IMG/VR virus record: IMGVR_UViG_3300037515_000543
Location: 1 to 40,429 of that record
Reading direction: 5' to 3' (one strand)
DNA length: 40,429 nucleotides
Source of the DNA: a virus
Lineage: Duplodnaviria > Caudoviricetes
Part shown: piece after piece, positions 1 through 40,429 of the stretch
Layout of the letters: the number at the start of each line of letters is the position of its first letter
Position numbering within the stretch: position 1 is the stretch's first letter
Made by a program: the position numbers and the translations under genes
The notes under the pieces: model-generated
Told to the model about the DNA's origin: nothing
The model's input: the letters and a program-made list of their open reading frames with translations, nothing else
The model's database searches: none

Positions 1-127
1 ACGGCCGTTCCAAAACCGACCACTTCCTTCAGGTCGGCGATGAGGTGATGGTGCGCGGCAAAAAAGACGAAAAGCCCGGCACCATCCTGGACACCAACGG
101 CGGCGAACTGTTCACCGTATCCGTCGA
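1..127. repeat. Terminal direct repeat, identical to 40303-40429 (circular assembly overlap)
   Basis: Exact 127-bp identity between the two contig ends; 127 is a common assembler k-mer length. Confidence 0.95.
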
Positions 128-185
128 TGGCCATCAATTAAAAGTCGGTGCCGACAAGCTGCGGCTGATTCCGTCAGCGTCGTAA
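1..185 (+). CDS. 3' part of the junction-spanning ORF that starts at 39837; C-terminal KOW/SH3-like segment
   Basis: Frame continues from 39837 through the overlap to TAA at 183-185; LQVGDEVMVRGKKDEKPGTILD resembles a KOW motif. Confidence 0.8.
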   Translation, partial: GRSKTDHFLQVGDEVMVRGKKDEKPGTILDTNGGELFTVSVDGHQLKVGADKLRLIPSAS

Positions 186-227
186 CCGTTCGCGCGCAAA
201 CCAGCGCGCCGGGAAAGGAGCAACCCC

Positions 228-464
228 GTGCCGGGGCGGGAAATTCCCCGGCAAAGGAGAATCATGATCACCGAACAATCAAACCGCACCGTCTGGGTCA
301 TGCACCCAGACGACAACGTACCCGTCCGGGCCACCAAAACCGGCTACTACCTGAAAAACGGCCGTGCCGTGGGCCTGGAGCTACAATTCCCCGACGGCAA
401 GCGCGTCGGATTCAGCTACGATGAAATCAGATCGTCGATGGCGCAGGCGGCGGAGATTTTTTAA
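228..464 (+). CDS. Hypothetical protein (GTG 228 or ATG 264)
   Basis: AAGGAG precedes both candidate starts. Confidence 0.7.
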   Translation: MPGREIPRQRRIMITEQSNRTVWVMHPDDNVPVRATKTGYYLKNGRAVGLELQFPDGKRVGFSYDEIRSSMAQAAEIF

Positions 465-530
465 TAGTGAGTGGCTCGTAATGAGCAGCGCTCCCAGCGC
501 AAACGGCCGTATGGCCAAAGGAACCCGAAA

Positions 531-947
531 ATGTACAAAACAACAGCAGCAGGATACCAAGGAGCTAATTGGGTACAGGCCGCGCTTAAACCGAAAGAGA
601 TGTCAGAATTTGGATGCAAGGTTGCTGATATGCTAGGCGATCTCTTTGAAGGAATTTATCACTTGCACGATGATCAGTTAAAGGCCGTTGATTGGGGCAA
701 TAATCATCACATTACATTTGTGCTCGGACAGGGATGCCTATCAACTTACGACAGCAGATTGTTGACCGACCTCGTTTTGATGGCGCACCAGCGTGCTATC
801 CGTGTTCAGATTTCGCCCCGTTCTTATCGCAACCTGACACTTACCTTCCACCCGCGAAAAAGCGGAATGGAGCACGAGTGGCACGAGCGACATCCAACGA
901 TTGATGAGGCAATAGCGAACTTCAACAACCTATTCCCATTTGAATAG
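531..947 (+). CDS. Phage hypothetical protein (STYD..LT.LV..AH...IRV motif)
   Basis: ORF 471-947; AAAGGA SD favours ATG 531; AT-richer than flanks. Confidence 0.75.
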   Translation: MYKTTAAGYQGANWVQAALKPKEMSEFGCKVADMLGDLFEGIYHLHDDQLKAVDWGNNHHITFVLGQGCLSTYDSRLLTDLVLMAHQRAIRVQISPRSYRNLTLTFHPRKSGMEHEWHERHPTIDEAIANFNNLFPFE

Positions 948-1003
948 CAAAAACGGCCGTAACCCGGCCCCAGGCCGCAGTGGCGGCGAAGGAGACAATC
1001 ACG

Positions 1004-1402
1004 ATGTATGTACAGTTTATGTGTGAAACCGACCCAATGATGGGCTACGAGGAGGCTGATTTAGTGAAACTCGATACCGTTCCCGCCCCCGGGGACACGA
1101 TTATTAATTTCCCCTTTGGCAACAATGGTACGTGGGAGTGGGATGTTCTTGCTCGCACCTTCAACTTTGACTGCGGTAATGACGACATCGGCATATTGGC
1201 GATGGTCTACTGCAAGCCCGAGGGAGTTGGGAAGCGGCGCAAGCTCACTTACGGCGAAAAGTTGCTGGCTCGCTTTGTGGAGCTAATGGCCGAGATGAGT
1301 GACGAAAATCACCCTACCTTTAATCGAATGCCAAGCGAGTTGCGCGATTTGTGGAACGATGCGGCGGATACCATCTCATCCCTAACAGGCAATCCGCATT
1401 AA
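1004..1402 (+). CDS. Hypothetical protein
   Basis: AAGGAG at 989-994 before ATG 1004. Confidence 0.7.
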   Translation: MYVQFMCETDPMMGYEEADLVKLDTVPAPGDTIINFPFGNNGTWEWDVLARTFNFDCGNDDIGILAMVYCKPEGVGKRRKLTYGEKLLARFVELMAEMSDENHPTFNRMPSELRDLWNDAADTISSLTGNPH

Positions 1403-1479
1403 TAGCAGGCAGCAAAAACGGCCGTTTCCCCACCTCGTCAAAAGCAAAGGAAACGGCCGTATCACGAGGAACTAAACCC

Positions 1480-1734
1480 ATGACAGAACAATTTTACCAC
1501 ACCGTGATCATCCATCTGCATATCGCTTACGATGGCACGCTTCACTTTTACAACCGGCGAGAAAACGGCCGTATCGTCGTCGATGCCAAGCCCATCAGCG
1601 CCCAGCGCGCCGCCGACATTATGAAACTGAACGACGACGATCCGGCCGTGCAGACGAGCAAGCGCCCCATCGGCAGCGGCTGGAGCTGGATGGCCAGCGT
1701 CAATGTCCAGGTGGAGGAGCTGGCCAATGCATGA
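1480..1734 (+). CDS. Hypothetical protein
   Basis: GAGGA SD, ATG 1480, in the frame of ORF 1351-1734. Confidence 0.7.
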   Translation: MTEQFYHTVIIHLHIAYDGTLHFYNRRENGRIVVDAKPISAQRAADIMKLNDDDPAVQTSKRPIGSGWSWMASVNVQVEELANA

Positions 1735-1939
1735 TCCCAACCTGGCAATCATCAACCTGCAAACCGGTGAAATAACCCCGCTCGACGAATGGCTGCGTGA
1801 CCACCGGCGGCGGCAGCTCCAGCTCATTTTGGCCCAGCTGGGGCAGGTGCCCACGGGAGTGGGTGGGGATGAGGGGGCACAGGCCAGCGCCGACGAGATG
1901 GCGCGGGCGCTGTTTGCGCGGCGGGAGACACCCGGTTAA
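1727..1939 (+). CDS. Hypothetical protein
   Basis: GGAGG SD, ATG 1727 overlapping the upstream gene end. Confidence 0.6.
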   Translation: MHDPNLAIINLQTGEITPLDEWLRDHRRRQLQLILAQLGQVPTGVGGDEGAQASADEMARALFARRETPG

Positions 1940-1975
1940 AATACCTTACCCTCCCCCCGAGGCTGGCACGCACCA

Positions 1976-2006
1976 AAAAACCCCTGACAATTTGTCAGGG
2001 GTTTTT
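1976..2006. terminator. Bidirectional Rho-independent terminator between the convergent arms
   Basis: AAAAA-CCCCTGACAA-T-TTGTCAGGGG-TTTTT perfect inverted repeat with A/T tracts on both sides. Confidence 0.85.
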
Positions 2007-2258
2007 GTTTTCCAGTTCACACCGCTGCCTAAACTCCAAGTCAGCATAAGCCTGCAACTCATCCACCTCTCCCAAACGAATCCCCTCCACCACCGCCTCT
2101 ACCCGGCTGCGTGCCTTCAGGCGCTTAAAAATCCCCGTCAGGTGGTTTTTGACCGTCCTCTCTTTATTCCCCAGCGCCCGCCCGATCTCCGCATTGCTGG
2201 CGCCGCCGGCCGCCAACTGTAACACGCGGCGCTGGGCAGGGGTGAGCAGCCAGGTCAT
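1995..2258 (-). CDS. Stand-alone LuxR/NarL-type HTH protein
   Basis: LTPAQRRVLQLAAGGASNAEIGRALGNKERTVKNHLTGIFKRL...SR matches the LuxR C-terminal pattern; ATGA overlap with the M23 gene. Confidence 0.9.
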   Translation of the reverse strand: MTWLLTPAQRRVLQLAAGGASNAEIGRALGNKERTVKNHLTGIFKRLKARSRVEAVVEGIRLGEVDELQAYADLEFRQRCELENKNP

Positions 2259-10265: not shown

Positions 10266-13200
10266 TTAGCCTGTCCTGATGCGCACGTCGGCACGACGGC
10301 CGCTGGTTGCCAGCTCTTCGCGGATAATGCCGCGCAGCCGGTCAACGGTTGGCGCGTCGGTGCCTCGTGCGTCGATATTGATAGTTGTTGAAGAGCCGCC
10401 GCCGGATAGGGCAGGGGAGGAAACGGCCGTTGCGGTTGTCTCCGCATTTATTTGCGGCTGCACCGTGGCAAAAGGCAACGTCATTTCGTTCACCAGGTCG
10501 GCCACGGAATTGCGGACGGCTCCTACGTCCCCCAGGCCGTCAGCCAGGCCGCGCATGGCAAACTGCCCGATTTCCTTGAATACGCCAGAGGGCGAGCTGA
10601 TGTCTAGCTGCTCGTTGGCCTGCTCTATTATCGCCTGAATCGCCCGCGTCATGGCCTGCACAAGCCCCTGAGTGTCAGCGCCCAGGCCCAGCTCCAGGCC
10701 GCCCAAAATATCCTGAGCGTTTAGGCCGTGTTCGGAGATGAGGTCGAGTAAATCCTGCTGCTGCTTTAGGAATGCGAGGTCGGACTGTGCTTTTTGCAGC
10801 GCCAGAATATCAGCCTGCGCGCTCTCGTATTCGGCCGTGGCGCTATTCAGCTCGTTTTGCGTCTGCCAGATAGCCTCGATCTCCCGTTTCATTTTGTCGT
10901 TGCCAGAATGAACGGCGTCGAAGTAGGCTTTGATGAGGCGGTTTTGATCCAACATATCGACATCATCCAGGCCCAGCGTTTCCGCCATACTGTCCCGCAG
11001 TGACTCTAGCTCGGTGCCGCGGGTATCCATGACCGCCTTCAGGTCAGTCATGAGGCCGGATTGCAGCTGGCCAGCGAATCCGCCGGCGATACCGCTCAAG
11101 CTGCTGCCAACCTGGAATAGTCGCCGCGTCGCATCCTGAACGCTCTTTTCGCTCATTGCAATACCATTCACCAAGCCCTGACCAATGTTTCTACCTACTT
11201 CGGTAAAAACTTTTGATGGCGATTCAATCCCCAAAAATCCCTTAGCCGCGTCCAGCGCCGCTTGCGCTGCGTTTTTCGCCGCTTCAGCAATCGCCCCGGC
11301 CCCGGCAGTTATCGCCCCGGCAATGCCGTTGATAATACCCCAGCCAACTTCAGCCCAATCCGTATCATGGAATTTGGCAATCAGATCGAGGATCAGCCCG
11401 GCGGCAATGCGGATGATCGTTTCTTTAGCATTGGTAAATAGTTCGCTAATCCGCGCCCAGGCCGTGTCCCAGGCGTCGCGCAGCTTCTCGCCGAATGTTG
11501 TCCAGTCGCCTTCGAATGCTGCTTTGAACGCGGCAAATATTGATTGGATCATATCAACGGCCGTTTGCACGTTCGTCGATATAAATTCCCAGGCAGCGCG
11601 GGCCGATTCCATGATGGCCTCGCCATGTTCGGCCCAAAACGCTTGCAGGCCGGTCATCACGGTGGTGACGACATTGCGCACGAACTCAACGGCCGTATTT
11701 ACCGCCGTCTGAATCCCCGTCCAAATCTCCTGAGCTTTGGCCATGATGGCCTCGCCGTTCTCAGCCCAGAACGCCTGCACCCCGGCCATAACGGCCGTAA
11801 TCACGCCGCGTATGAATTCCACCGCAGCGGCCGTCTTCTCTTGAATCCCGCCCCAATTTTGTTCCCAGGCCGTGCGCAGCAGGGCCACGATGGCAATGAT
11901 GGCCACGATTGGGGCGGCAATCGCCAGGACAGAGAGGAGGAGCGACCCGAGAATGGGCAGGATGACGCTGGCCAGCAGGATGCCCAGGGCGATAAGGACA
12001 TCTTTTAGCTGAACATGGTTGGCAATCCAATCAATAACCGGCTGCACGTTAGCGGTAAACCACTCCACCAGCTGCGGCAATACGCTGTTGTTGAACATGT
12101 TTAGGGTCTGGGCCAGCTGCATGGACTGCTCAGACGAAAGGCCAAAGACGCTGGCGAGTTGCAGAATAAGCCCCGTGAGGTTGCTCAACATCGGCGCGCC
12201 ATTCTGCATTCGGCTAAAGAAGTTACCGATAACGCCAATAACCGTCTCAATCGCCGGAATTACGGCCGTATTCAGCACATTCTCGATCTTAGGCAGCGCG
12301 CCCTCGGCAAAACTCACCACCGCATTGATAATCGGTTCCATCGCCCCGCCGATCTGGATCAGCACCGCGCTGCCAAATGCCTTAAATCGCTCAATGCTGC
12401 GGCCGATGCCCCGATTCATGGTGTCATAGGCCGCGTCCGTGGCCCCGGTAGAATCGGCCATCTCATCCATTGCCGCCGATACCGCGTCAAAGTTTGGCCC
12501 CGTCACGCCCAGCACGGCGTTCATCGCCTCGACAGACCCAAATAAATCCTTGAAATCCTGCTCAGGCATCGACTGGCGCAAATCCTCAAAAATGCCCGGC
12601 ATGGATTCACCAGATTCGATCAGCTCAGCAAACGACTTTCCGGTCAAGTCCTGAATGGCGTCACTCAGATTAGTACCGCTTTTGCTGGCCTCTACCATTG
12701 CCGACCGGATCTGCGTCGTGGCTACGCTCGTAGGCGTGCCCTGCGCTGTCAGCGTCGCCAGCTGCGCGGCCACGTCACCAAACCCAACGCCCAAACTGGC
12801 CGCCGTGGGGATGACATTAAACAGGCTGGCAGAGAGCTGATTGAAGTCGGTCTTACCCAAGCGAACGGCCGTAAACATCACGTCGCTGGCCTTCGCCGCA
12901 TCTACCACGTCGCTGCCGTAGGCATTCATCACGCTGGTGATGCCGTCAACGGCCGTTTCCAGCTCAGTAACGCCACCCACCGCCGCCTTCTGGGCAATCT
13001 CCAGGAATGAAAAAACATTGTCCTGGGGCACGCCTGCTGACAGGCTCTGGTACAACGCGGGCACCACTTTTTCGGGGAGCACGGCAAAATCTTTACTGAA
13101 TTGCAGCACCTGCCCGCTCATGTCATCCATAGCATCCTGGGAGATGCCAGGCAGCAGGGTAAATACTTCGTTCATCTGGCCCTGGAAACCGATAAACGCC

Positions 13201-13409
13201 GCCCCCGAGGCGACGGCCACCCCCACAACCGCCGCGCCAATGGCAGCAGCAGCAGCCACAGCCACCCCCTGAGCTGCCTTGAAGCCGTCGCCAATCGTCT
13301 TACCTACCCGATCCCGAAAAGACGACGCCTCTTTTTGCGCGTCGTCAAGCCCGCCGGTGTAATCGGCGGCATCGAGGAGGAGGGAGACAAATAGCTTTTG
13401 AATTTCCAT
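10266..13409 (-). CDS. Tail tape measure protein (TP901-like core)
   Basis: 1047 aa; LYQSLSAGV, VRLGKT, W-spaced amphipathic repeats, LGIESPSKVF motif. Confidence 0.95.
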   Translation of the reverse strand: MEIQKLFVSLLLDAADYTGGLDDAQKEASSFRDRVGKTIGDGFKAAQGVAVAAAAAIGAAVVGVAVASGAAFIGFQGQMNEVFTLLPGISQDAMDDMSGQVLQFSKDFAVLPEKVVPALYQSLSAGVPQDNVFSFLEIAQKAAVGGVTELETAVDGITSVMNAYGSDVVDAAKASDVMFTAVRLGKTDFNQLSASLFNVIPTAASLGVGFGDVAAQLATLTAQGTPTSVATTQIRSAMVEASKSGTNLSDAIQDLTGKSFAELIESGESMPGIFEDLRQSMPEQDFKDLFGSVEAMNAVLGVTGPNFDAVSAAMDEMADSTGATDAAYDTMNRGIGRSIERFKAFGSAVLIQIGGAMEPIINAVVSFAEGALPKIENVLNTAVIPAIETVIGVIGNFFSRMQNGAPMLSNLTGLILQLASVFGLSSEQSMQLAQTLNMFNNSVLPQLVEWFTANVQPVIDWIANHVQLKDVLIALGILLASVILPILGSLLLSVLAIAAPIVAIIAIVALLRTAWEQNWGGIQEKTAAAVEFIRGVITAVMAGVQAFWAENGEAIMAKAQEIWTGIQTAVNTAVEFVRNVVTTVMTGLQAFWAEHGEAIMESARAAWEFISTNVQTAVDMIQSIFAAFKAAFEGDWTTFGEKLRDAWDTAWARISELFTNAKETIIRIAAGLILDLIAKFHDTDWAEVGWGIINGIAGAITAGAGAIAEAAKNAAQAALDAAKGFLGIESPSKVFTEVGRNIGQGLVNGIAMSEKSVQDATRRLFQVGSSLSGIAGGFAGQLQSGLMTDLKAVMDTRGTELESLRDSMAETLGLDDVDMLDQNRLIKAYFDAVHSGNDKMKREIEAIWQTQNELNSATAEYESAQADILALQKAQSDLAFLKQQQDLLDLISEHGLNAQDILGGLELGLGADTQGLVQAMTRAIQAIIEQANEQLDISSPSGVFKEIGQFAMRGLADGLGDVGAVRNSVADLVNEMTLPFATVQPQINAETTATAVSSPALSGGGSSTTINIDARGTDAPTVDRLRGIIREELATSGRRADVRIRTG

Positions 13410-19543: not shown

Positions 19544-20935
19544 TTATGCCTCCTGTACCGTGGCGTAGCCCATGCTGGCCAGCGCCTCATCGGCCCGCTT
19601 GCGGCTTTCGGCCAAATCGGGCAGCTGCTCGCCACCGCCGCCGTTAGCCGTCTCACCGTTGCCGGTCACGCGGCCGTCTTTACCCAGCAGCGCGGCAATC
19701 TCGGTCTGGGCCTCGGTAACGGCCGTTTCCACTGCCTTGCCCATAGCTGCCTCATCCAATTTGCCGTCGGTGGCAATCGGGTTGCGGGCCAGCTGCCCAG
19801 CCAGGCGGGTTTGGGTAATTTCCGGCAGGTCGGTTTCGGCCAGTTTACCGGTGACAAAATCCCGCGCCTCACGCAGCAGCAATTGCTCCCGCATTTTGGC
19901 CAGGGCGGCTTCGGTTTCGGCCAGCTTTGCATCTCGTTCGGCGAGTGCGGCCTGGGCCTCTTTCAATTGTTCTTCGCTCATAGCGTCCTCCGATTCTTGC
20001 ATCATGCCGCCCATTGCGGCGATGTCGTCACTATCCGGGCTTTTGGCCCATGTATCACGTTTGAATAATTGCGGCGCGTTGCTCATCAGGTCGGTGCGGT
20101 AGGTGTCCAGGGCCGCGCCGATAGCGCTGCTCATGGCCTTGCGTTCTTCCCGGCTCACACGGCCGTCTCCATACATATCATCGCCAACCATCGTTAGGTG
20201 GAGGTGCAGGCGACTTTCCAGCCACTCGCCAATGTTGCGGGCCTCTGCCAGCTTCTTGAACGATTCACTGGTTTTCTCGCTGTTCAGCAGCGACAAAACG
20301 GCCGTCAGTTGCTCCAACGCCGCCTTCAATTTCGTTTCGTTGGCCTTGCTCAGCACCCGCCCGGCTTCGCTCAAAAATTCGTCAATGCCATTGGGTTGGG
20401 TAGGGGGTGGCAGCTTGCCTGCATTCGGGGCGCTCTCGAAAATAGAGACGATGGCGCCGCCCGCGCCGGGAACGGTCACAAAGTCAACGCTCTTCCCGGC
20501 GGCAATCTCTTGAATGATACGGCCGTTTTTGCCCTCCGCTTCCCCGGTGGTGTGGCGACCCATGCCGCGAATGCTTACGCCGATGTGCTCACCGATTTCG
20601 TCGATAGCGTTGGCGTAGCCTGCAAACGGCCGTGCCTCGGCATACATGCCGGGGCCGTGGGGTCCGCCTTCAAGCCAGATGGGATCGGAAACGGTTACGG
20701 CGGCCAGATCGCGCAGATCGCCTTCTGGCCGCTCCATTTCCTCGGTAGGGGTGGCATGGTTCCACATCATATGAGTGCCTTTGGGGAAAACTTTGGGGAT
20801 GTCGCGTTCTAAAACTTCACGGGGGTAGTAGCCGCTGCTGCCCCAGCCAGGCTGGATCAACTTTAGGCTGATGGTGCCGTCACGCCGGACGGCGCGTTCG
20901 GAGAGGGGGATAAATTCGGTGAATTTTTCGGCCAT
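19544..20935 (-). CDS. Prohead protease-scaffold fusion
   Basis: WNH, IGVSIRG, SVDFVTVPGAGG motifs, then a coiled-coil scaffold region. Confidence 0.85.
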   Translation of the reverse strand: MAEKFTEFIPLSERAVRRDGTISLKLIQPGWGSSGYYPREVLERDIPKVFPKGTHMMWNHATPTEEMERPEGDLRDLAAVTVSDPIWLEGGPHGPGMYAEARPFAGYANAIDEIGEHIGVSIRGMGRHTTGEAEGKNGRIIQEIAAGKSVDFVTVPGAGGAIVSIFESAPNAGKLPPPTQPNGIDEFLSEAGRVLSKANETKLKAALEQLTAVLSLLNSEKTSESFKKLAEARNIGEWLESRLHLHLTMVGDDMYGDGRVSREERKAMSSAIGAALDTYRTDLMSNAPQLFKRDTWAKSPDSDDIAAMGGMMQESEDAMSEEQLKEAQAALAERDAKLAETEAALAKMREQLLLREARDFVTGKLAETDLPEITQTRLAGQLARNPIATDGKLDEAAMGKAVETAVTEAQTEIAALLGKDGRVTGNGETANGGGGEQLPDLAESRKRADEALASMGYATVQEA

Positions 20936-22323: not shown

Positions 22324-22610
22324 TGCGCCTCCTCGGTTGGTTTCCTGTAAATAGCAATGTATTGGTTTCCGCCAGCCGCATCACCCAACGGGAACAGCCC
22401 GGCCTCTACAAGCGCCTCCCATACGGCGTTTCGCAGCTTCGGTGAAACGGCCGTATATCGCTCACCTCTAAGAATCCAGGAGCATTCCCACGCCCCAGTG
22501 TCCTCTCCATAATCGAGCGTGCAAGATTGCGATTGCCTTGCCATCCACTCAAGCATGGCCTCAATGGTAGGATCCATAGTGTCTATATATACCAGATTAG
22601 CTGTGTCCAT
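22320..22610 (-). CDS. Hypothetical protein
   Basis: GGAGG SD; overlaps the portal end. Confidence 0.65.
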   Translation of the reverse strand: MDTANLVYIDTMDPTIEAMLEWMARQSQSCTLDYGEDTGAWECSWILRGERYTAVSPKLRNAVWEALVEAGLFPLGDAAGGNQYIAIYRKPTEEAQ

Positions 22611-24297
22611 TCATCGCCTCCCGTAAATCCACCAGCAAATCAGAAACGGCCGTTACCTGCCGGTTCCAGATCGCCTCACTCGTTTCCTCTTCCTCACTAT
22701 CCTCCTCCTCCTCCTCCCCACCTGCCGGGGCAGGGGAGAGCCGCGCCGCCATCTCATCCGCCCGCGCCTGGCGCGCCTCCTGCTCTTCTTGCCATATCCC
22801 CATCACCGCGTCAACGTCATCAATCCCCAGCTCGGAGATGAGACGACGAACGGCCGTTTCCAGCGGAATGCCAACGCCTTCGCTGCGTCCGGCCAATGTC
22901 TGCGCCTCAATGATAGAGCCGATGGTTTCTTTGATGTCGTGCTGAATAATCGACGGAAAGGCCACGGCCACAGTCGGGTCAATGTCATCATTCCAGTTTA
23001 CGCGTTCGTGCACCTGGTCACCGTCCTTCTCTGGCACCATCCGTCCCAGGCTGCGCAGCGGGCCTTGTGGCGCTTTCACCGCCCACAGCATCGCGTAGCC
23101 CAGAATGTCACCCAGGACGCTTTTCCATAAAGCCTGCCGATCCATAATCAGCAGCTCAGTGGGCCGGTCCAGTGATTTAGCCGTGGCCAGGCTGCCCACG
23201 CTGGCATCGCCGAAAAAGGTTTCGGGAAAGCCAAAATCCATAATCGCCATGAGCAGCAGGCGACGGCCGTCCTCCGCGCTCATGGTAGCCCCGGCCGTGC
23301 GGAATGGTTGCAGGTCCGTGCCCTCGCCGCTGATGAAGGTGGAGCCGGTGACCGGCGGCGGATTCGTTTCATCGCCCAGCCCGCCGCCCAGCGTCGTGTT
23401 CAGTTTGGCCTTAGCCGCCGCCACGCCGCGTTTGCCGCCCTGCACGGTGAGCTTGGCAGCCCAGCGGGCCAATGCCTGCCACACTGACGCCAGCTGCTCT
23501 AGGAACGATTTATAGGCCAGCGCCCAATCGTTGCCCGCGTAAAATTCCGATACTCCCCAACGGCCCATCTTGTTTGTGGCCACGTGGTAGACCGGCGTGT
23601 CCCAGTCGACACGGCCGTTTATCCCGCCCAGCGTCGCCAATTTCTCTGTGAAGCCGACTTTGGAGCGGGGGGTAAATTGCCAATCGGGGTAATAAACGGT
23701 GTGGGCCACCGTGCCGCCGTCGAGATTCCGCTGCACCCAGACGCGCCGGTAGAACCACGGTTCGCGCTTGTCCTCGGGATTGCAGATGATGTCGTCGATT
23801 TCCTGCGGGTCAATGGTGCTGAGGCGGATACGGCCGTTTAGCGCGTTGACGTGGAATCGAAAGAAGAGATTGCCGTCCTGCTGCAAATCCGTCTCCCGCT
23901 CGCCGCGCGCCTGGTGGCCGGTCAATTCGGCGCGGTTGCGTTCATCGTCGATGAACGCCTGCACCGTGGCGTTGATTGTTTCGTCGGCGGCCGAAATGTT
24001 GACGCCCTGTGCCCAGACGTAGAGGCGCTGGATTTTGACGCCGCGCTTGATGATCGGGTTTTTCAGGCGCATGATCCGGGAGAGTTCCGTGATTTGGCGC
24101 AGGCCCGCGCGGGTAAACTCCTGATCGGCCTGCATACTCATCATACGCCATTCGGTGCTGTAGAGCAGCTGCTCCAGGCGCTGCAGAGATTCGGTGAGCT
24201 GCCAGATTTGGCCGCTTTGGGAAACGGCCGTTTCCTGTAGACTGCTCAGTTTGCCGCCGGTCAGCCGGTCGGCTATGGATTCGGTTATTGTTGCCAT
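22597..24297 (-). CDS. Portal protein
   Basis: 566 aa directly after TerL; DGNLF and FPETFFGDAS.GSLATAKSL motifs. Confidence 0.85.
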   Translation of the reverse strand: MATITESIADRLTGGKLSSLQETAVSQSGQIWQLTESLQRLEQLLYSTEWRMMSMQADQEFTRAGLRQITELSRIMRLKNPIIKRGVKIQRLYVWAQGVNISAADETINATVQAFIDDERNRAELTGHQARGERETDLQQDGNLFFRFHVNALNGRIRLSTIDPQEIDDIICNPEDKREPWFYRRVWVQRNLDGGTVAHTVYYPDWQFTPRSKVGFTEKLATLGGINGRVDWDTPVYHVATNKMGRWGVSEFYAGNDWALAYKSFLEQLASVWQALARWAAKLTVQGGKRGVAAAKAKLNTTLGGGLGDETNPPPVTGSTFISGEGTDLQPFRTAGATMSAEDGRRLLLMAIMDFGFPETFFGDASVGSLATAKSLDRPTELLIMDRQALWKSVLGDILGYAMLWAVKAPQGPLRSLGRMVPEKDGDQVHERVNWNDDIDPTVAVAFPSIIQHDIKETIGSIIEAQTLAGRSEGVGIPLETAVRRLISELGIDDVDAVMGIWQEEQEARQARADEMAARLSPAPAGGEEEEEDSEEEETSEAIWNRQVTAVSDLLVDLREAMNGHS

Positions 24298-24306: not shown

Positions 24307-25803
24307 CTAATACGGTGAGATCTCCACCGCCTCCTCGTCTACAACAACGCCCGTTTCGTGCTGGGGCGTCTCGATCATGATTGCCACCGATAGGGCCAGC
24401 ATAAGGCCCCAAAATTTATCCGCATGATGCTTTTCATTCCGTTCCGTGTCAAATACCAGATTTTTACTCGCCGTTATTTTCCGCTTGATGCTGTGAATCT
24501 GGTAAGCTAAATCCTTGTCAGTCGGAATCGGGGCCCGGCGCTGCTGGAAAAGCATTTTACCATCCGTGGCCCACAGCGCCTTGCTCTGGTTGGTAAAGTC
24601 CACCCCGGCCGCCTTGCCGGGAAATAGCCGCTCCATTGTCTCCGATAAATTGCGGCCTATGCCGTTCCGGTCAATCAGCAGGCCCAGCAGTGGCAATTTT
24701 GTTAAAGCGGCAGTTAAAACTGCCACCTGACTATCAAAGTCGCAATTGTCCAGGCTGATGGCCAGCCGGACCGGGTAGCTTCGCAGCGTCGAGACGCCAA
24801 CCAGGTAAAGCTCCGAGGTATTTCGCGTGCGGCCTACATCGTAGCCGGCCGCAAAAACCAGCTCCACCGCGTTTTTCTCAACCAGGTCGGCCAGTTCGTC
24901 AATAGCCTCGAGCGCCCGGTCGATAACGCTGTCTCTCACATCGACCATGATCGCCGGTCCGCTGTGGGCCGCCTGGTTGTTCTTGATTTCGTCCCAGGTT
25001 ATCCAGGCCGTCGATTCGTCAACAAAAGCACACTCGTACTCTTGCTGAAAATCTTCCAGCGGCATGTTGGCGTAAATCGCTTTAATGCGATCGTTGCCAA
25101 ACATCTCCACCCGTTCAAAGGTGGAGAGGGTGGGGGCGAGCCGCCGCGCCGCTTTTACGTTGCGGCAAAACGCCTGCACTTCCCACCACGGCGTCGCTTT
25201 GCGCGTGTAGCCGGGGAACGGTTGCAGCGATTGGGTGAACACTTCCCAGAAACGGCCGCTGCCGCCCATCGGGCTGCTGGCCATCCGCAGCCGCCGGGTG
25301 CCTTTCGTCATCATGGGCAGGGCGGCGGTGTAGATGGTTTTGTCATCACGGACGTGGGCGAATTCGTCCAGGTAGACATTCATCTGCGCCTTGCCGCGCG
25401 GGGCAGTGCTGGGTAGGGAGATAAGCCGCCCGCCGTTGTCGAATTCGATTTCCTGCTTGTTGTCGGTGATGAGCTTGGGACGCATCGAGCGGGGCAGGGC
25501 GTGACGCACATTGTGGGCGTAGCGGATTTTTTCCTTTGCTTCATCCAGGTTTATGGAAACGAAGACGCTGGACGCCCCGGTCAGGATGGCGTCGGCGACG
25601 GCCTCGGCCGCGCTTAAAAAAGACCATGCTATTTGACGACTTTTGACTTCGGTGCGGAATGTAGCGTCGTCTTGTAAATGTGCTAACTGGAAATGTTCCC
25701 AGCGTGCTCCCTCAAATTGTGCCGCCTCTGGCAGGTCTAAGTTATCTACCAGGAAGGCGGCGCGTTCGGTTTTAGGTTGCCATGTCATCTGCGTCGTCTT
25801 CAA
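24307..25803 (-). CDS. terL: Terminase large subunit (Mu gp28-like); start may be ATG 25788
   Basis: KSRQIAWS Walker A variant, VYLDEFAH Walker B, ASSP motif, GYDVG and HADKFW nuclease aspartates. Confidence 0.93.
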   Translation of the reverse strand: MKTTQMTWQPKTERAAFLVDNLDLPEAAQFEGARWEHFQLAHLQDDATFRTEVKSRQIAWSFLSAAEAVADAILTGASSVFVSINLDEAKEKIRYAHNVRHALPRSMRPKLITDNKQEIEFDNGGRLISLPSTAPRGKAQMNVYLDEFAHVRDDKTIYTAALPMMTKGTRRLRMASSPMGGSGRFWEVFTQSLQPFPGYTRKATPWWEVQAFCRNVKAARRLAPTLSTFERVEMFGNDRIKAIYANMPLEDFQQEYECAFVDESTAWITWDEIKNNQAAHSGPAIMVDVRDSVIDRALEAIDELADLVEKNAVELVFAAGYDVGRTRNTSELYLVGVSTLRSYPVRLAISLDNCDFDSQVAVLTAALTKLPLLGLLIDRNGIGRNLSETMERLFPGKAAGVDFTNQSKALWATDGKMLFQQRRAPIPTDKDLAYQIHSIKRKITASKNLVFDTERNEKHHADKFWGLMLALSVAIMIETPQHETGVVVDEEAVEISPY

Positions 25804-26736: not shown

Positions 26737-27138
26737 TCACACCCTTGCCAGCCGCGGCAACGGCCGTTTCCGGTTCCCCGGCCATCGCAGCAAAAAAGCC
26801 AGCGGCGCTTGTTCCTCCGCTGGCTCCAAAACTTGAATATCGAATGACGCTTTAATTGGCCAGGAAACGGCCGTTTCTAACTCGTTCAATACCGCTGCGT
26901 AATCCATCCGGTACTTTTTCGACAGATACCCGGCAAAGCGCTGGCGCTGTGGGCCGGTCAACTCACCCATAGCCAGATCGTAAGCCAGGACCGGGAACGC
27001 CCTCCCCTGCTGCTCTTGCCAGCGCGGGGTGGCAGCCATCACCGGGAGTGTGTCCGTGCCAAAGACGTGCAGCCAGGTAGCCTGGCGCTTTTCGTCAGTG
27101 GTTTGGATCAGGTGGATAGAACGGCCGTTTGTGAACAT
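26737..27138 (-). CDS. Hypothetical protein, paralog of 29123-29443
   Basis: Shared WLHVFG and LT..QR.R motifs. Confidence 0.75.
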   Translation of the reverse strand: MFTNGRSIHLIQTTDEKRQATWLHVFGTDTLPVMAATPRWQEQQGRAFPVLAYDLAMGELTGPQRQRFAGYLSKKYRMDYAAVLNELETAVSWPIKASFDIQVLEPAEEQAPLAFLLRWPGNRKRPLPRLARV

Positions 27139-28305: not shown

Positions 28306-28674
28306 TTGCGCGTCCTCAAAATCTACCACCGAGGCAGCGGCTACGGCCGTGTGCTCACCGACGCCGAGCCCGAACACCATCTGGGTGATTTTATCCGGCT
28401 GGAATCGGCCGCCCTGCCCGACCTGGCCCAGCTGGCGGCCGATGTGCTGGGGGATGAGCAGCCGCTGCTGCCGCCGCAGCACCAGCGCAATCTGGCGCGG
28501 TGGATTTTGCGTCATGGTTGTGAGAGGTGGGGAGAACGGCCGTTTCACGCTTCGCGCACATACCCCAACCACCCGTCATTATCCCGCGCCCCTGGTGGCA
28601 CAAATTCCATTTGCAGCGCCTCAAACACATCCCCCTCCTCTGCTGTGGGGATGAGCTGGCGCTGCCAGGTGTAG
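28306..28674 (+). CDS. Possible inverted (plus-strand) gene or gene remnant
   Basis: AAGGAG SD, TTG start, phage-like codons and protein-like sequence up to ~28540; 3' end runs antisense into PolX. Confidence 0.4.
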   Translation: MRVLKIYHRGSGYGRVLTDAEPEHHLGDFIRLESAALPDLAQLAADVLGDEQPLLPPQHQRNLARWILRHGCERWGERPFHASRTYPNHPSLSRAPGGTNSICSASNTSPSSAVGMSWRCQV

Positions 28675-29138
28675 AGCAGGCCGCCGATAAACTTAACACT
28701 CACCTGCGGGGCACGGGTGCGCATCAGCCACATATTAAAATCGTGGCTGCCGGTGCGAATGGTAAAGACGCTGCCCCAATGGGCCGGGGATTCCGGCATG
28801 AAGAGATCGACGGAGTAACGGCCGTATTGAAACTGGATATATTTCTGGACCGTCTTTTTCTTTGGGTCGTAGCCGCCTTTGATGATATGCACCCGCTTTT
28901 CCAGCAGAAACGCCTCGACGGACGTAAGGCCGGGCACAGTGATGCCCAGCAGGTCAGTTTGGCGCATTGGCAGGCACACAATCTCAATATCGCCAATTTG
29001 CGGCCGCTGGCGGCGGATGCTGCCTGCTACGGCAATGCGGTGGCAAAATGGGTTCAGCGCTTCGAGAATGTGCCCGGCCGTTTTCTGGGCGGCGGCGAGC
29101 GGGGTTTTGGGGGTGGCGCTCATTACAGCCACCGCCAC
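28545..29138 (-). CDS. polX: Minimal family X DNA polymerase-like nucleotidyltransferase (no PHP domain)
   Basis: VAGSIRR...IGDIEIV, VDLF, IRTGSHDFN, EEGDVFEALQMEFVPP..R motifs. Confidence 0.88.
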   Translation of the reverse strand: MAVAVMSATPKTPLAAAQKTAGHILEALNPFCHRIAVAGSIRRQRPQIGDIEIVCLPMRQTDLLGITVPGLTSVEAFLLEKRVHIIKGGYDPKKKTVQKYIQFQYGRYSVDLFMPESPAHWGSVFTIRTGSHDFNMWLMRTRAPQVSVKFIGGLLYTWQRQLIPTAEEGDVFEALQMEFVPPGARDNDGWLGYVREA

Positions 29139-35812: not shown

Positions 35813-35831
35813 TTTGTTGCTCCTTTTGTTC

Positions 35832-37027: not shown

Positions 37028-37126
37028 AGTGAAATCTCCGATAAAAACATGGCCAGCAGAGCCAGCGATACGGCCGTTTCCAGCGGTACCAGATTGCGGC
37101 GCGGCGGGTAGGGTGGTGGTGGCAGG

Positions 37127-37834
37127 TTATTGTCTCCACGCGCTTATGATGTTGCGGCAGCTGCGCGCGAAAGCCTCGTAGGGTGCGTCTGCCGCCCCGC
37201 TTCCGTCACCCCATTTGCGGCCGTCGTAATCAACCAAGCTGGGCCAGAATCCGCGCTGCGTAGTCTTACATGGGTCAAAAAATGAATTAAACTGAGTAGC
37301 CATTTTTAGGTGCATATTTCCATCTACACTCACCACATCGGCGAAGTTTCGCATTTCGCTGTGTATCTGCATTTGCCGCTGCGGGGATCCGCCTAGCAGA
37401 TGTACGGGCCATCCAGAAAACTCCAGCATGGGCACATCTGTTTTGCCGTGCCGGGTAGGAACTGAATACCCAAGCACGACTCGCCGGGAATTGATGTGCC
37501 GGGGAATTTTTTTGATCGTGCCAGGAACCTTTGGGATCAACAGTATCGACTCCCGAACATGCTCGGCAATTTCCTCCGCCCGTAGCATGATCTCTTGGTA
37601 TCCACGCCCGGCGTGCCAGTCATGTACTGATGCCATAGTTGGTTGGTGCCGCCGCAATTTTGAAACGTAATCCCACTGGTTTGGCGGCCGCTCTGGGTGT
37701 AAATCAACAAAGTGAAGGTCATAGTAAACAGTTCCTGGCATTTGCGCGCCGTACAGGAATCCCGCATCAATAGCGATTTGCGCAAATCTCTTATTTCCGT
37801 TGGCACAGTAAATCAGCTCAAGGTCAGTCGCCAC
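37127..37834 (-). CDS. TGT/DpdA-like TIM-barrel protein (tentatively DUF6610-like)
   Basis: VHLLGGS and VSVDGN motifs resemble transglycosylase H.LG and D-S motifs. Confidence 0.5.
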   Translation of the reverse strand: MATDLELIYCANGNKRFAQIAIDAGFLYGAQMPGTVYYDLHFVDLHPERPPNQWDYVSKLRRHQPTMASVHDWHAGRGYQEIMLRAEEIAEHVRESILLIPKVPGTIKKIPRHINSRRVVLGYSVPTRHGKTDVPMLEFSGWPVHLLGGSPQRQMQIHSEMRNFADVVSVDGNMHLKMATQFNSFFDPCKTTQRGFWPSLVDYDGRKWGDGSGAADAPYEAFARSCRNIISAWRQ

Positions 37835-38107
37835 AATTCAATCCTCACACTCACCCCGTGCCCGTTCGCGGGCACTCAGGCGGCTGCTCATCAACGATGC
37901 GGCCGTGACGCACACGAGGGAGGTGGCCACAAATAAAATTAAAATAATCAGGATGGTGATGATCGCATTCATTCCGGCTCCCAAAAAAGGGGCAGGCGGC
38001 GGGGCTTTGCAGATTGCCTACGGGGATCGCGTATTGTGGAGGTCGTATCATCGTACCCATTCATGGAAGAAGGTAATGCCCGCCGCCCGCCGCCCGGCAA
38101 ACGGCCG

Positions 38108-38317
38108 TTAAGCCGGGATTGCTAAAGTGTTTTCGTAGGCCCGCCGCTGCTCATTTACGAGCCGCTCACGGTTCTTTAGCTCGCTGTCTACGGCTTCCGC
38201 CGGAACGAACCACTTGCCAGCCTCATCCTGACGACCGTTTAACTTAGCAAACGCCAACGCAGTAGGGTAGGACCACCCAAGAATATTTTCTATGTTTTTT
38301 ATCGTTAATTCGTCCAT
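38108..38317 (-). CDS. Small HTH-like regulator from a leaderless transcript
   Basis: LTIKNIENILGWSYPTA...GKWFVP; first gene at the divergent switch. Confidence 0.7.
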   Translation of the reverse strand: MDELTIKNIENILGWSYPTALAFAKLNGRQDEAGKWFVPAEAVDSELKNRERLVNEQRRAYENTLAIPA

Positions 38318-38324
38318 GACCACC

Positions 38325-38353
38325 ATTCTATAGGAAATCAATACCAATGTCAA
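38325..38353 (-). promoter_or_regulatory. Leftward sigma70 promoter
   Basis: TTGACA-17-TAGAAT, 7 nt upstream of ATG 38317. Confidence 0.85.
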
Positions 38354-38371
38354 TTGATTTATAGAAATTGG

Positions 38372-38400
38372 TTGACACATAGTAGAAAATAGTTTATACT
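38372..38400 (+). promoter_or_regulatory. Rightward sigma70 promoter
   Basis: TTGACA-17-TATACT. Confidence 0.85.
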
Positions 38401-38478
38401 TCCCTTAGTTAAGAAATAAAAAAGCCGCCCCACTCCAGCAAAGAAAAGGACGGCCAAAACCCAGAAAGGATTTGAACC

Positions 38479-38718
38479 ATGATAGCACAGCAGACAGAAA
38501 TCAAAAAGCACAGCTTCTCCGAAATCAAACGACACAAGCAGAAAACATACTGCCCAGTAACCCAGATGCAGCGCTTAAACCGCGCCCTGGCCGAACTCCT
38601 CACCCTGGCCCCCAACGACCTGATGTACGACTACCTGGTCAACCGCTACCTGCAAAGCCTGGACCTCTACCACGTCAACGGCCGCAGCGGCAGCCTGCTG
38701 CCCCAGGCGGTGCAATAA
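38479..38718 (+). CDS. Hypothetical early protein
   Basis: AAAGGA SD; first gene after the rightward promoter. Confidence 0.75.
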   Translation: MIAQQTEIKKHSFSEIKRHKQKTYCPVTQMQRLNRALAELLTLAPNDLMYDYLVNRYLQSLDLYHVNGRSGSLLPQAVQ

Positions 38719-38939
38719 TGGCCCGGCTAACCGACCCCATTATCGAAACCAGCATCCAGCTGCGCAGCCTGCCGTTCCGGCCCATCATTCAGGTAGACGA
38801 CAACACCGTCACCGTCACCCTGCGGCCCTTCTACGGCGATCACGTCCAGTGTACGGCCGTTTCCTTTGCCCTGGCCTGGACCGGGGCAATGAACCAACTC
38901 AAGGGCGAATCGCTCCTCAGTCATGGCGGTGGGCAATGA
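38718..38939 (+). CDS. Hypothetical protein
   Basis: TAATG coupling; MARLTDPIIETS... Confidence 0.7.
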   Translation: MARLTDPIIETSIQLRSLPFRPIIQVDDNTVTVTLRPFYGDHVQCTAVSFALAWTGAMNQLKGESLLSHGGGQ

Positions 38940-39076
38940 CCAACCAAGACCAAAAAGCCCGCGAAGCCGCCGCCGCCGAAAAGGCGCGCCAGGCTGCCGA
39001 AAGATGGCAACGAATCGACAGCGCAGCAGCAGCCGCGATCAAAGAAGACACCTACCGCCGGGAGATGAGCAAATGA
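38936..39076 (+). CDS. Small Ala-rich protein
   Basis: ATGA overlaps at both ends. Confidence 0.55.
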   Translation: MTNQDQKAREAAAAEKARQAAERWQRIDSAAAAAIKEDTYRREMSK

Positions 39077-39762
39077 TTACCCTACAATCACTCACCAAAC
39101 TAGAAAACGGCACCTACTACGCCAAATGGTACGACGCCGACGACCAGCACCCAGACATCGGCCACACCGTTGCGGCCCTGCACCACGAAGACGGCCGTCT
39201 CGACGCCGCCAATCTCAACATCCGCGCCCCGCGCCTGACGGCCGAACAAATGCAGCAGGCGCAGCCGGACACACACCCGGCCTACGAGCTGGCCGCCAAA
39301 GGCACGGCCGTCAAACCCAGCTGGGCCAACCGCTACCAGAAAGCGGCCGAACTGGTGGAGGCGGGGCAGGTGCGGCTCACCGGACCGGAAACGGCCGTAG
39401 TCACCGGCAGCAGCGACACCTACCAGGTCAATGGCAAATGTCACTGCCGCTGGACCCAGTTCCACAGCGAGCCATGCAGCCATTACCTGGCCGTCCGCAT
39501 GGCCCGCGCCCTGGCTCAGCCCATCCTGCCCACCACAGAGGCCGAAAAAGAGGCAGCTTGCGAAGCCCGCCGGCAGGCTAATAAGGACGCGATGGCCAAA
39601 CGCATCGCCGCCCGTGGCGAGAATATCCACGAACGCAACCGCCGCCGCGCTCGCAGCGATGGCGACGGCGCGCGCCAGTGGGCCCGCATGGCCCAGGCCA
39701 ACGGCCGCAGCACCGTCCCGGCGCGCATCTACGACCGGGCAACCGGGGGAGGGGGAAGCTGA
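39073..39762 (+). CDS. SWIM zinc-finger protein
   Basis: YQV...CHC.......PCSHYLA (CxC-xn-CxH). Confidence 0.8.
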   Translation: MITLQSLTKLENGTYYAKWYDADDQHPDIGHTVAALHHEDGRLDAANLNIRAPRLTAEQMQQAQPDTHPAYELAAKGTAVKPSWANRYQKAAELVEAGQVRLTGPETAVVTGSSDTYQVNGKCHCRWTQFHSEPCSHYLAVRMARALAQPILPTTEAEKEAACEARRQANKDAMAKRIAARGENIHERNRRRARSDGDGARQWARMAQANGRSTVPARIYDRATGGGGS

Positions 39763-39836
39763 TGCTCTTCCAAATCTTTTTTGTTATCCTGTTTTTTGCA
39801 ATCGTCATTAGATGTTTGATCAACTGGAGGTGAACT

Positions 39837-40429
39837 GTGAGTAATCAACTGAACGAAATCCACACTATGCTCGAAGCGCTGCTCAAAAGCAGCAATCATA
39901 TTCATTGGATCGGCGGCTACGTGTACGGCCGTACATCCCAGGATGACCCGTTTGTCATCCTCTACCCGGCCAGCGATATGCTGAAAGAAAAAGCGGTGCG
40001 CGTCTACGAGCACGATTTTCGCAAGCTGCCGCCGTTCATCGCCACCGACAACGTTCCGGCCGATACCGAGAACAATCCCAACAAAACCCAGGCGCAGAAG
40101 AGCCGCATCTATCACACCTGCCCGCTCTTCAAAATCTGCACCTACGACGGCAAGGATACCCAGATGGGCAAAGAAAAGCGTTTCGGCGGCGTCCTGCGGG
40201 TGACAGACAGGATGCCAAATGCCCCGAGCGTAAGCGAAGCGTCGCCAACGGCCGTTTCCCAGCCAGCCGCCAAACCAGCAGCAGCACCGGCCGCGAACGC
40301 CAACGGCCGTTCCAAAACCGACCACTTCCTTCAGGTCGGCGATGAGGTGATGGTGCGCGGCAAAAAAGACGAAAAGCCCGGCACCATCCTGGACACCAAC
40401 GGCGGCGAACTGTTCACCGTATCCGTCGA
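39837..40429 (+). CDS. 216-aa hypothetical protein continuing across the circular junction to 185
   Basis: GGAGG SD at 39826-39830, GTG start, open frame to the contig end. Confidence 0.8.
   Translation, partial: MSNQLNEIHTMLEALLKSSNHIHWIGGYVYGRTSQDDPFVILYPASDMLKEKAVRVYEHDFRKLPPFIATDNVPADTENNPNKTQAQKSRIYHTCPLFKICTYDGKDTQMGKEKRFGGVLRVTDRMPNAPSVSEASPTAVSQPAAKPAAAPAANANGRSKTDHFLQVGDEVMVRGKKDEKPGTILDTNGGELFTVSV
40303..40429. repeat. Terminal direct repeat, identical to 1-127
   Basis: Exact identity. Confidence 0.95.

What the first reader, a model, noticed from the sequence alone, without database searches (positions are those of the whole stretch)
1..40302. Genome saturated with a highly iterated palindrome ACGGCCGT (extended GAAACGGCCGTTTC)
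Seen: I counted 91 exact ACGGCCGT by eye in the 40,302-bp unit, about 1 per 440 bp. About 1 copy is expected from base composition if GC is 55-60%. The 14-mer GAAACGGCCGTTTC occurs perfectly at 24221, 26864, 29456, 29740, 29937, 31832 and 32883, and many 7/8 near matches exist. It lies inside conserved structural genes in all three frames (TAV/ETAVS, NGR/DGR/YGR, RP) as well as between genes, so it is not a codon effect. Known: cyanobacterial HIP1 (GCGATCGC) reaches comparable density and is linked to a methyltransferase for its core hexamer, and phages usually avoid palindromes. The core here is CGGCCG (EagI/XmaIII site). Inference: this is a non-cyanobacterial HIP system imprinted on the phage by a host process such as methyl-directed repair or conversion, uptake bias, nucleoid protein binding or recombination. 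No methyltransferase is recognisable in the phage, so the machinery is likely host-encoded.
Basis: partly seen in the sequence, partly recalled or inferred. Interest (0 to 1): 0.9.

Follow-up and report, generated by a model that had tools for sequence, protein, structure and literature searches.

The report
Host palindrome dialect written into phage
This phage carries the 8-letter palindrome ACGGCCGT 92 times, 40-90 times more than chance, and thousands of copies fill the genomes of its likely hosts (filamentous Chloroflexota), where sister lineages use other palindromes and each copy sits in a mirror-image G/C base bias, likely the footprint of a site-directed DNA repair process like the one proposed for cyanobacterial HIP1.

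Summary
Observation confirmed: 92 ACGGCCGT in the 40,302-bp phage (1-2 expected); 63 in genes against 8.9 after synonymous shuffling; silent positions inside the motif are 93-98% conserved in related phages (59-76% outside). It is a host signature: 64 of 151 Promineifilales genomes (Ca. Leptofilum, Ca. Leptovillus) carry 0.9-2.2 per kb, other Anaerolineae do not. Sister lineages use TCGGCCGA, GCGGCCGC, plain CGGCCG or TGCCGGCA, and related phage contigs follow their bin's word. The scan found this motif and host before on other DNA (six notes). Added here: (1) all six TGCCGGCA genomes hold a lone methyltransferase whose homologues pair with NgoMIV (GCCGGC), one evolutionary event; (2) 123 of 151 genomes hold a lone methyltransferase that elsewhere pairs with a NotI-family nuclease, but it tracks the motif imperfectly; (3) every dialect tested has a G-rich-5'/C-rich-3' halo at silent codon sites, decaying over about 100 bp, and HIP1-rich contigs show the same halo. 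Best reading: a host site-directed repair or conversion ratchet (0.45). Methylation and the acting nuclease are unshown. Not found in the papers searched.

The parts
1..40302 (.). 92 dispersed copies of the palindrome ACGGCCGT (2.28 per kb), graded symmetric flank consensus GGAA-ACGGCCGT-TTCC
   Evidence: positions, flank matrix; shuffles, spacing
24221..24234 (.). Perfect 14-mer GAAACGGCCGTTTC in the portal gene 5' end (ETAVS); six more at 26864, 29456, 29740, 29937, 31832, 32883
22597..24297 (-). Portal gene, 6 copies; sites arose by substitution (gap columns at most 5%) at both variable and invariant positions; 81-83% identical portal in a bin of the Ca. Leptofilum clade (G130)
24307..25803 (-). 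Terminase large subunit, 0 copies in 1,497 bp
10266..13409 (-). Tape measure protein gene, 7 copies
19544..20935 (-). Head maturation protease gene, 5 copies
40303..40429 (+). 127-bp terminal overlap (circular assembly); both it and base 1 begin with the motif

Best explanation
The window is a tailed phage whose 92 ACGGCCGT copies match the genome-wide signature palindrome of its likely Promineifilales hosts, where a host system likely recognises the (probably methylated) CGGCCG core and would direct short, strand-polarised repair or gene conversion from it, acting as a ratchet that creates and preserves sites in any DNA replicating in the cell. SHOWN: enrichment in phage and hosts; restriction to this order; an all-or-none hexamer core with graded symmetric flanks; preservation at silent positions; dialect changes along the host tree with new sites at new positions; related phage contigs carrying their bin's dialect; a mirror-symmetric G-rich-5'/C-rich-3' halo around host sites. 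INFERRED: the host link (by composition and binned relatives, no spacer or integration seen); that the lone methyltransferases mark the core (B predicted GCCGGC from its NgoMIV partner; A only compatible with CGGCCG through its NotI-family partner); that a dimeric factor nicks at the site and the strand running 3' from it is resynthesised while the strand 5' of it is exposed as template, which would skew C:T and G:A ratios in the observed directions; that favouring the site-bearing strand at mismatches drives the accumulation (Elhai-type model). The nicking factor is unidentified.
For: Host range: 67 of the first 80 GTDB loci are Chloroflexota-labelled, 0.9-3.9 copies per kb in pattern-selected loci; 64 of 151 order genomes at 0.9-2.2 per kb; among 251 Anaerolineae only 4 known order members exceed 1 WCGGCCGW per kb, the other 243 reach at most 0.42, and C/G-flanked forms exceed their mirror control at most 2.3-fold there. 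Only 8 of 75 loci of portal/terminase relatives carry it. Same phage family: 40 ACGGCCGT in 22.5 kb (G130 bin), 33 TCGGCCGA and 0 ACGGCCGT in 34.9 kb (G129 bin), 1 and 0 in two other bins. Core: one-off variants enriched only at positions 1/8 (O/E 1.7-6.9), inner variants 0.4-1.4 in hosts, the pattern Elhai 2015 reports for HIP1. Preservation: 73 of 89 window-site comparisons intact in relatives against 21-57% of GC-matched 8-mers; fourfold sites 37/39, 27/29, 42/44, 42/43 inside against 0.59-0.76 outside. Only 1 of 55 site positions in ribosomal genes is shared between dialects. Halo: fourfold sites 5-12 bp upstream G 0.587/C 0.165, downstream G 0.159/C 0.567, baseline 0.350/0.331, still 0.05 at 101-160 bp; same for TCGGCCGA and TGCCGGCA, flat for control palindromes; sign holds in 109 of 109 host loci. 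Methyltransferase B in 6 of 6 TGCCGGCA genomes against 11 of 145 others, partner NgoMIV E 3e-108. Methyltransferase A in 123 of 151, 58 of 64 motif-rich genomes, none of the 6 TGCCGGCA genomes, largely vertical in the order; 11 of 11 tested neighbours outside the order hit Pfam NotI. MutL present in 5 of 5.
Against: Methyltransferase A is not found in a whole CGGCCG-rich clade (8 genomes on the tree; 0 of 5 at E 0.01), and 3 of those relatives tested showed no amino-methyltransferase and a Dcm-like C5 enzyme; A is present in a clade without enrichment (G103, G025, G075, G138, G021, G069) and in 25 other Anaerolineae. A has DPPY, usually an adenine enzyme, while CGGCCG has no A. Site avoidance in 12 genomes with A plus nuclease is inconclusive (CGGCCG pooled O/E 0.72; 2 vs 20 in G252 but 44 vs 43 in G251). 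The B association is a single event (5 genomes monophyletic, support 1.00; G142 not on the tree) and 11 genomes have B without the TGCCGGCA word. No NotI-like nuclease in 4 of 4 CGGCCG-type genomes tested. The halo is weak in the window (0.08+-0.08, 0.12+-0.07, 0.15+-0.06, then nil) and in other phages although site density there is as high as in hosts, so sites and halo may have different causes. Silent divergence near sites is only slightly lower (0.39-0.41 vs 0.46). No integrase found, so long residence in the host chromosome is not shown.
Confidence: 0.45

Rival explanations
1. Transformation or recombination signal: incoming DNA is bound, cut or integrated preferentially at the palindrome (uptake-sequence or Chi-like), leaving the site at the 3' end of an invading strand whose G-rich 5' flank favours RecA; molecular drive then spreads sites.
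For: [quoted passage not shown] ComEC in 41 of 44 order genomes. Halo polarity fits a 3' overhang ending at the site; RecA prefers TGG repeats (PMC3763553, listing only). Graded flanks and lineage dialects resemble uptake sequences.
Against: ComEC is equally present in the non-enriched clade. Inner one-off variants sit at background, unlike the graded cores of uptake sequences (recalled). A phage without a detected integrase should gain little from uptake drive, yet has 2.28 per kb, above the highest of 151 hosts (2.18). Halo length of tens of bases is short for transformation tracts.
Confidence: 0.2
2. Binding site of an abundant dimeric nucleoid or replication-associated protein, kept by purifying selection in host and phage; the halo reflects the protein's extended sequence preference or loading direction.
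For: Strong preservation at silent positions in phage; symmetric graded flanks; persistence in clades without a detectable cognate methyltransferase; Xu et al. 2018 argue this for HIP1 (PMC5861425, passages).
Against: Sites are not positionally kept across dialects (1 of 55); whole clades lose the word; spacing in the phage is Poisson-like; the switch to GCCGGC coincides with a GCCGGC-predicted methyltransferase; a halo reaching 100-160 bp is long for a footprint.
Confidence: 0.15
3. Self tag in host defence: methylated sites mark DNA as self and DNA poor in them is destroyed, so phages are selected to match their host's word.
For: Phage density equals or exceeds hosts while the halo is weak in phages; related phages follow the bin's dialect; both candidate methyltransferases derive from restriction-modification pairs.
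Against: Does not by itself explain 10,000 host copies or the halo; no nuclease partner found beside A in the order; the phage avoids other palindromes in the usual way.
Confidence: 0.1
4. Relic or compositional by-product: codon or amino-acid bias, dispersed repeats, or hairpin-driven template switching.
For: Two thirds of genic copies are in the TAV frame; slight mirror pairing in host flanks 1-4 (z 6.1).
Against: Survives synonymous shuffling 7-fold; flanks are not a repeat family; no mirror pairing in the window, phage pool or TGCCGGCA pool; halo holds at fourfold sites on both sides.
Confidence: 0.02

Closest known systems
HIP1 (GCGATCGC) and alternate HIPs of cyanobacteria (Elhai 2015, PMC4390886; Xu, Lawrence and Durand 2018, PMC5861425)
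   Same: GC-rich palindromic octamer at 1,000-2,300 per Mb, O/E up to about 90, in all reading frames; hexamer core with variable outer bases (TCGGCCGA here parallels TCGATCGA there); palindromic extensions; one-off variants at positions 1 and 8; conservation beyond codon use; replacement by another word together with a methyltransferase predicted for it; clades lacking the cognate enzyme; and, found here, the same-sign flank halo (+0.14+-0.025 around HIP1).
   Different: Other phylum, other sequence (0 HIP1 in the window), candidate enzymes are alpha-type amino-methyltransferases derived from NotI-family and NgoMIV-family systems rather than DmtC/DmtA; A/T outer bases are not explained by Elhai's G-meC rule; dialects form clades; halo about three times stronger; carried at full density by phages.
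DNA uptake sequences of Neisseriaceae and Pasteurellaceae (DUS/USS; features recalled)
   Same: Thousands of copies, lineage dialects around a fixed core, imprint on protein sequence.
   Different: Those are non-palindromic with graded cores; here a strict palindromic hexamer with inner one-off variants at background.
Chi sites (RecBCD/AddAB; features recalled and from 10.1101/2024.09.10.611283)
   Same: Over-represented short word with a polarised G-rich side.
   Different: Chi is non-palindromic and unmethylated; density here is far higher.
Dcm/Vsr very-short-patch repair enriching CCWGG (recalled)
   Same: A methylase site enriched by local repair.
   Different: No C5 methyltransferase in 4 motif-rich genomes and Vsr in 1 of 5 tested; enrichment is far larger.

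Membership tests
Highly iterated palindrome (HIP class, Elhai 2015) | Palindromic 6-8-mer at about 300-2,700 per Mb with O/E above about 15 | tested here: met
   2,283 per Mb, O/E 40-90 in the window; O/E 93 in host pool
Highly iterated palindrome (HIP class, Elhai 2015) | Genome-wide, in all three frames, not due to codon or amino-acid use | tested here: met
Highly iterated palindrome (HIP class, Elhai 2015) | One-off variants concentrated at first and last base; palindromic extensions | tested here: met
Highly iterated palindrome (HIP class, Elhai 2015) | Sites conserved more than control words and than the same codons elsewhere | tested here: met
Highly iterated palindrome (HIP class, Elhai 2015) | Co-occurring lone methyltransferase for the core hexamer | tested here: inconclusive
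   B predicted for GCCGGC in 6 of 6 (one event); A in 58 of 64 motif-rich genomes but missing from one enriched clade, present in a non-enriched one, specificity unproven
Highly iterated palindrome (HIP class, Elhai 2015) | Core is methylated in vivo | not testable with these tools
   no methylation data in the tools; one paper search for Anaerolineae methylomes gave nothing on this order
Highly iterated palindrome (HIP class, Xu 2018) | 10-90 kb periodic spacing on the chromosome | not tested
   whole host chromosomes were not available as files
HIP1 in the strict sense | Sequence GCGATCGC in a cyanobacterial context | tested here: not met
   0 copies in the window; hosts are Chloroflexota
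DNA uptake sequence (DUS/USS) | Non-palindromic word with enriched single-mismatch variants across the core | tested here: not met
DNA uptake sequence (DUS/USS) | Raises DNA uptake through a receptor | not testable with these tools
   ComEC present in 41 of 44 regardless of motif
Chi site | Non-palindromic, oriented word | tested here: not met
   perfect palindrome with symmetric flanks
Dcm/Vsr-driven enrichment | C5 methyltransferase and Vsr present in carriers | tested here: not met
   no C5 enzyme found in G002, G004, G063, G092; Vsr 1 of 5; genomes may be incomplete

The most novel reading that the evidence does not exclude
HIPs are the visible trace of one undescribed, widely portable DNA-maintenance pathway: a restriction-modification methyltransferase loses its nuclease, is captured by a site-directed strand-polarised repair or conversion machine, and rewrites the genome and its phages around the new word. 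It evolved or was retargeted independently in cyanobacteria and Promineifilales, switched target once within the order (CGGCCG to GCCGGC with a methyltransferase swap), and leaves in both phyla the same mirror-image G/C halo of about 100 bp.
Probability: 0.3. Interest if true: 0.92.

Novelty: new variant of a known kind. Interest (0 to 1): 0.74.

Why it matters
[quoted passage not shown] A second phylum with several dialects, losses and a core switch gives the independent contrasts needed to find the responsible genes. The flank halo is a measurable footprint that separates repair or conversion models from pure binding-site selection and can be tested at once on all cyanobacterial genomes. Practically, the dialect is a strong host-assignment tag for phages and plasmids of abundant sludge and sediment Chloroflexota, and explains TAV/NGR-rich proteins in them.

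Tried and rejected
Codon or peptide cause: rejected. Asymmetric uptake-type word with a palindromic core: rejected (flank independence). Hairpin/template switching: no mirror pairing in window, phage or TGCCGGCA pools. Insertion origin of the sites: portal columns nearly gap-free, most non-conserved sites differ by 1-2 substitutions (15 of 26). C5 methyltransferase shared by the A-minus clade: the one shared by G088, G147, G149, G150, G065 and G024 looks Dcm-like by recalled motif, so CCWGG. Specificity of A from solved structures: nothing close; from plasmid homologues: at most 31% identity; from site avoidance: inconclusive. rpoB survey failed through too strict a cut-off (replaced by rplB). 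Five non-Chloroflexota genomes hit by the pattern hold only 36-327 copies. Lower divergence near sites: weak in hosts, none in phages; the distance-0 bin there is circular and ignored. Fisher P values are not phylogenetically independent and are not relied on. The spacing histogram is biased by the search pattern and not used. Paper searches: ACGGCCGT (293 holders, 30 listed, none relevant), Promineifil+palindrom, Chloroflex+CGGCCG (25 of 34 listed, none relevant), (2 cyanobacterial papers), Leptofilum/Leptovillus (1 listed). Delaye 2011 (PMC3271550) is not held. No structure or complex prediction was run.
Full report
OBSERVATION. The 40,302-bp unit (127-bp terminal overlap) holds 92 exact ACGGCCGT against 1.0-2.3 expected under 0th-2nd order Markov models; the seven 14-mers are at the stated places. 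In 47 provisional genes there are 63 copies in three frames (41/16/6); synonymous shuffles give 8.9 (max 16 of 500) and codon-order shuffles 1.6. The flank consensus GGAA..TTCC is graded and symmetric, left and right independent; other 6-bp palindromes are mostly avoided. The DNA is a long-tailed phage (terminase, portal, protease, capsid, tape measure) with no recognised methyltransferase or integrase.

HOST. A triple-copy pattern scan of GTDB contigs stopped after 43 of 64 parts with 123 loci; 67 of the first 80 are Chloroflexota-labelled, the named ones Promineifilaceae/'Ardenticatenaceae', Ca. Leptofilum and Ca. Leptovillus; five non-Chloroflexota genomes checked hold only 36-327 copies. 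In 151 of the order's 167 genomes, 64 carry 0.9-2.2 copies per kb. In 251 genomes drawn from the class, WCGGCCGW exceeds 1 per kb only in four order members, and C/G-flanked forms show no comparable excess. Eighteen of 37 viral loci picked by a double-copy pattern carry at least 1 per kb, several from the same or similar contigs, whereas only 8 of 75 loci of portal and terminase relatives carry the motif: it follows the host, not the phage family. Portal homologues occur in 4 of 167 order genomes; the closest (81-83%) is in G130, sister to Ca. Leptofilum proximum on my tree. These phage contigs carry their bin's word: 40 ACGGCCGT (G130), 33 TCGGCCGA and no ACGGCCGT (G129), 1 and 0 in bins without an octamer. 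Caveat: composition-based binning could produce part of this agreement, and no integration junction was shown.

DIALECTS. The search tool's mirror control revealed TGCCGGCA at 3,639-8,850 copies in six genomes that are poor in ACGGCCGT. Sampled regions show TCGGCCGA (4 genomes), GCGGCCGC (G040) and plain CGGCCG; CGGCCG exceeds its mirror up to 270-fold. On a 3,641-residue ribosomal-protein tree of 60 genomes the five TGCCGGCA genomes included are one clade, TCGGCCGA and GCGGCCGC fall in one further clade, ACGGCCGT occurs in several, and one clade has no excess (FastTree, rooted on G014, deep nodes weak). Only 1 of 55 site positions in these genes is shared between dialects.

HOW SITES BEHAVE. 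With masked background the octamer has O/E 93 in 924 kb of host DNA and 78 in 354 kb of phage DNA; single changes at positions 1/8 are enriched 1.7-6.9-fold, inner changes are near background. Window sites are intact in relatives in 20/23, 14/17, 23/32, 13/14 and 3/3 cases against 21-57% for GC-matched words; fourfold-degenerate positions inside sites are 93-98% identical against 59-76% outside. In 120 portal homologues the six sites map to nearly gap-free columns, some variable, one invariant, so they arise by substitution.

THE HALO. Prompted by an earlier scan note (e1-4029451), I measured flank composition. Around isolated host sites, fourfold positions 5-12 bp upstream are G 0.587/C 0.165 and downstream G 0.159/C 0.567 (baseline 0.350/0.331); the mirror skew falls from 0.415 to 0.051 at 101-160 bp. 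It has the same sign in 109 of 109 host loci with enough isolated sites, appears around TCGGCCGA and TGCCGGCA, and is absent around control palindromes, around CGGCCG with other flanks and in the non-enriched clade. It is strong in the three ACGGCCGT genomes of the A-minus clade (25 sites), short in plain-CGGCCG genomes and weak in phages including the window. Gene calls here are crude ORF picks, and host loci were partly pattern-selected. For comparison I took 26 of 51 metagenome contigs of at least 3 kb with HIP1 O/E above 15 and GC below 60%: 182 isolated HIP1 sites show +0.140+-0.025 at 5-21 bp and +0.07 to 100 bp, positive in 14 of 19 contigs; controls are few and near zero, the GATC control includes HIP1 itself. 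Three of these contigs encode proteins named from cyanobacteria; the rest are assumed. The word 'skew' in this sense was not found in the main texts of PMC4390886, PMC5861425 or PMC13756078. Inference: downstream G:A falls and C:T rises about twofold, as expected if the strand 3' of the site is resynthesised and the strand 5' of it is exposed.

ENZYMES. No C5 methyltransferase was found in four motif-rich genomes. Methyltransferase B (alpha order, SPPY) is in 6 of 6 TGCCGGCA genomes with no nuclease seen beside it (two contigs end close by) and in 11 of 145 others, mostly beside a nuclease confirmed as NgoMIV-family in G133; NgoMIV's GCCGGC target is recalled. Methyltransferase A (658 aa, alpha order, DPPY) is single-copy in 123 of 151 genomes, without a nuclease neighbour by eye in the 30 loci fetched (part of that output was cut), and not found in any TGCCGGCA genome. 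Outside the order it occurs in 25 of 243 genomes, and 11 of 11 tested neighbours from 24 fetched loci hit Pfam NotI (10 above cut-off); their profile finds NotI in the PDB at E 1e-5. NotI's site GCGGCCGC contains CGGCCG (recalled), but the family may have other targets. Against A: absent from an enriched clade, present in a non-enriched clade, DPPY, avoidance test inconclusive. Elhai likewise lists HIP1-rich strains without the cognate enzyme (PMC4390886, part 3). ComEC (41 of 44) and MutL (5 of 5) do not discriminate; Vsr 1 of 5; NotI-like nuclease 0 of 4 CGGCCG-type genomes.

MECHANISM. I commit to a host site-directed, strand-polarised repair or conversion ratchet keyed to the core (0.45), ahead of a transformation/recombination signal (0.2), a selected nucleoid-protein site (0.15) and a self tag (0.1); these are not exclusive. 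The phage shows full site density with little halo, which the ratchet explains only if halos build more slowly than sites.

LITERATURE SEEN. PMC4390886: parts 1, 2, 3 and 5 of 8 and a term search. PMC5861425, PMC13756078, PMC12772301: passages only. 10.1101/2024.09.10.611283: part 1 of 4 and passages. PMC3763553, PMC10746286: listing only. PMC3271550: not held. No supplements were read; genome-wide oligomer tables or methylome lists in supplements, REBASE and subscription journals could hold this motif. Searches found no description. DUS/USS, Chi, Dcm/Vsr features and enzyme specificities are recalled.

VERDICT. Real, host-derived, a new variant of the HIP kind in Chloroflexota, already noted by this scan on other DNA; the core switch with a methyltransferase swap, the restriction-modification ancestry of both candidates and the halo shared with HIP1 make the old HIP question testable. 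Interest 0.74.

Noticed in passing
window 1-8 and 40303-40310: The assembly begins exactly at a copy of the motif (chance about 0.2%); probably how the circle was opened, but a preferred end cannot be excluded.
   Followed up: no
G020, G022, G039, G076, G127, G142 (loci L197-L202, L217-L221, L192): Alternate palindrome TGCCGGCA at 0.9-1.8 per kb with a lone GCCGGC-predicted m4C-type methyltransferase next to ftsK or a nurA gene; no earlier scan note found for it.
   Followed up: yes
L499-L573 (HIP1-rich metagenome contigs): Mirror-image G/C skew halo around cyanobacterial HIP1, not found in three HIP1 papers searched.
   Followed up: partly
L629-L656: A widespread Anaerolineae restriction-modification pair: 660-700 aa DPPY methyltransferase plus NotI-family nuclease in three subtypes, specificity unknown.
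   Followed up: partly
window 38923-39762 (+), 39837-185 (+), 471-1734 (+): A small plus-strand early region without family hits (one protein has a Cys/His pattern like a SWIM zinc finger, by eye); no integrase anywhere, so lifestyle is open.
   Followed up: no
window 28545-29138 (-): Stand-alone DNA polymerase beta/X-like nucleotidyltransferase (Pfam PF14791, E 3e-7).
   Followed up: no
window 37127-37834 (-): DUF6610 protein (E 1e-31).
   Followed up: no
L622:17149-18390: The closest relative (G130 bin) has a different terminase large subunit beside an 81% identical portal: module swap.
   Followed up: no
G263, G302, G327, G234, G335 (class survey): Several Anaerolineae almost lack CGGCCG (0-6 WCGGCCGW per genome), the opposite extreme, suggesting restriction or methyl-C loss at the same word.
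   Followed up: no
L657 (G022:C2:3160234-3163452): C5 methyltransferase plus Vsr without a nuclease in the densest TGCCGGCA genome.
   Followed up: no
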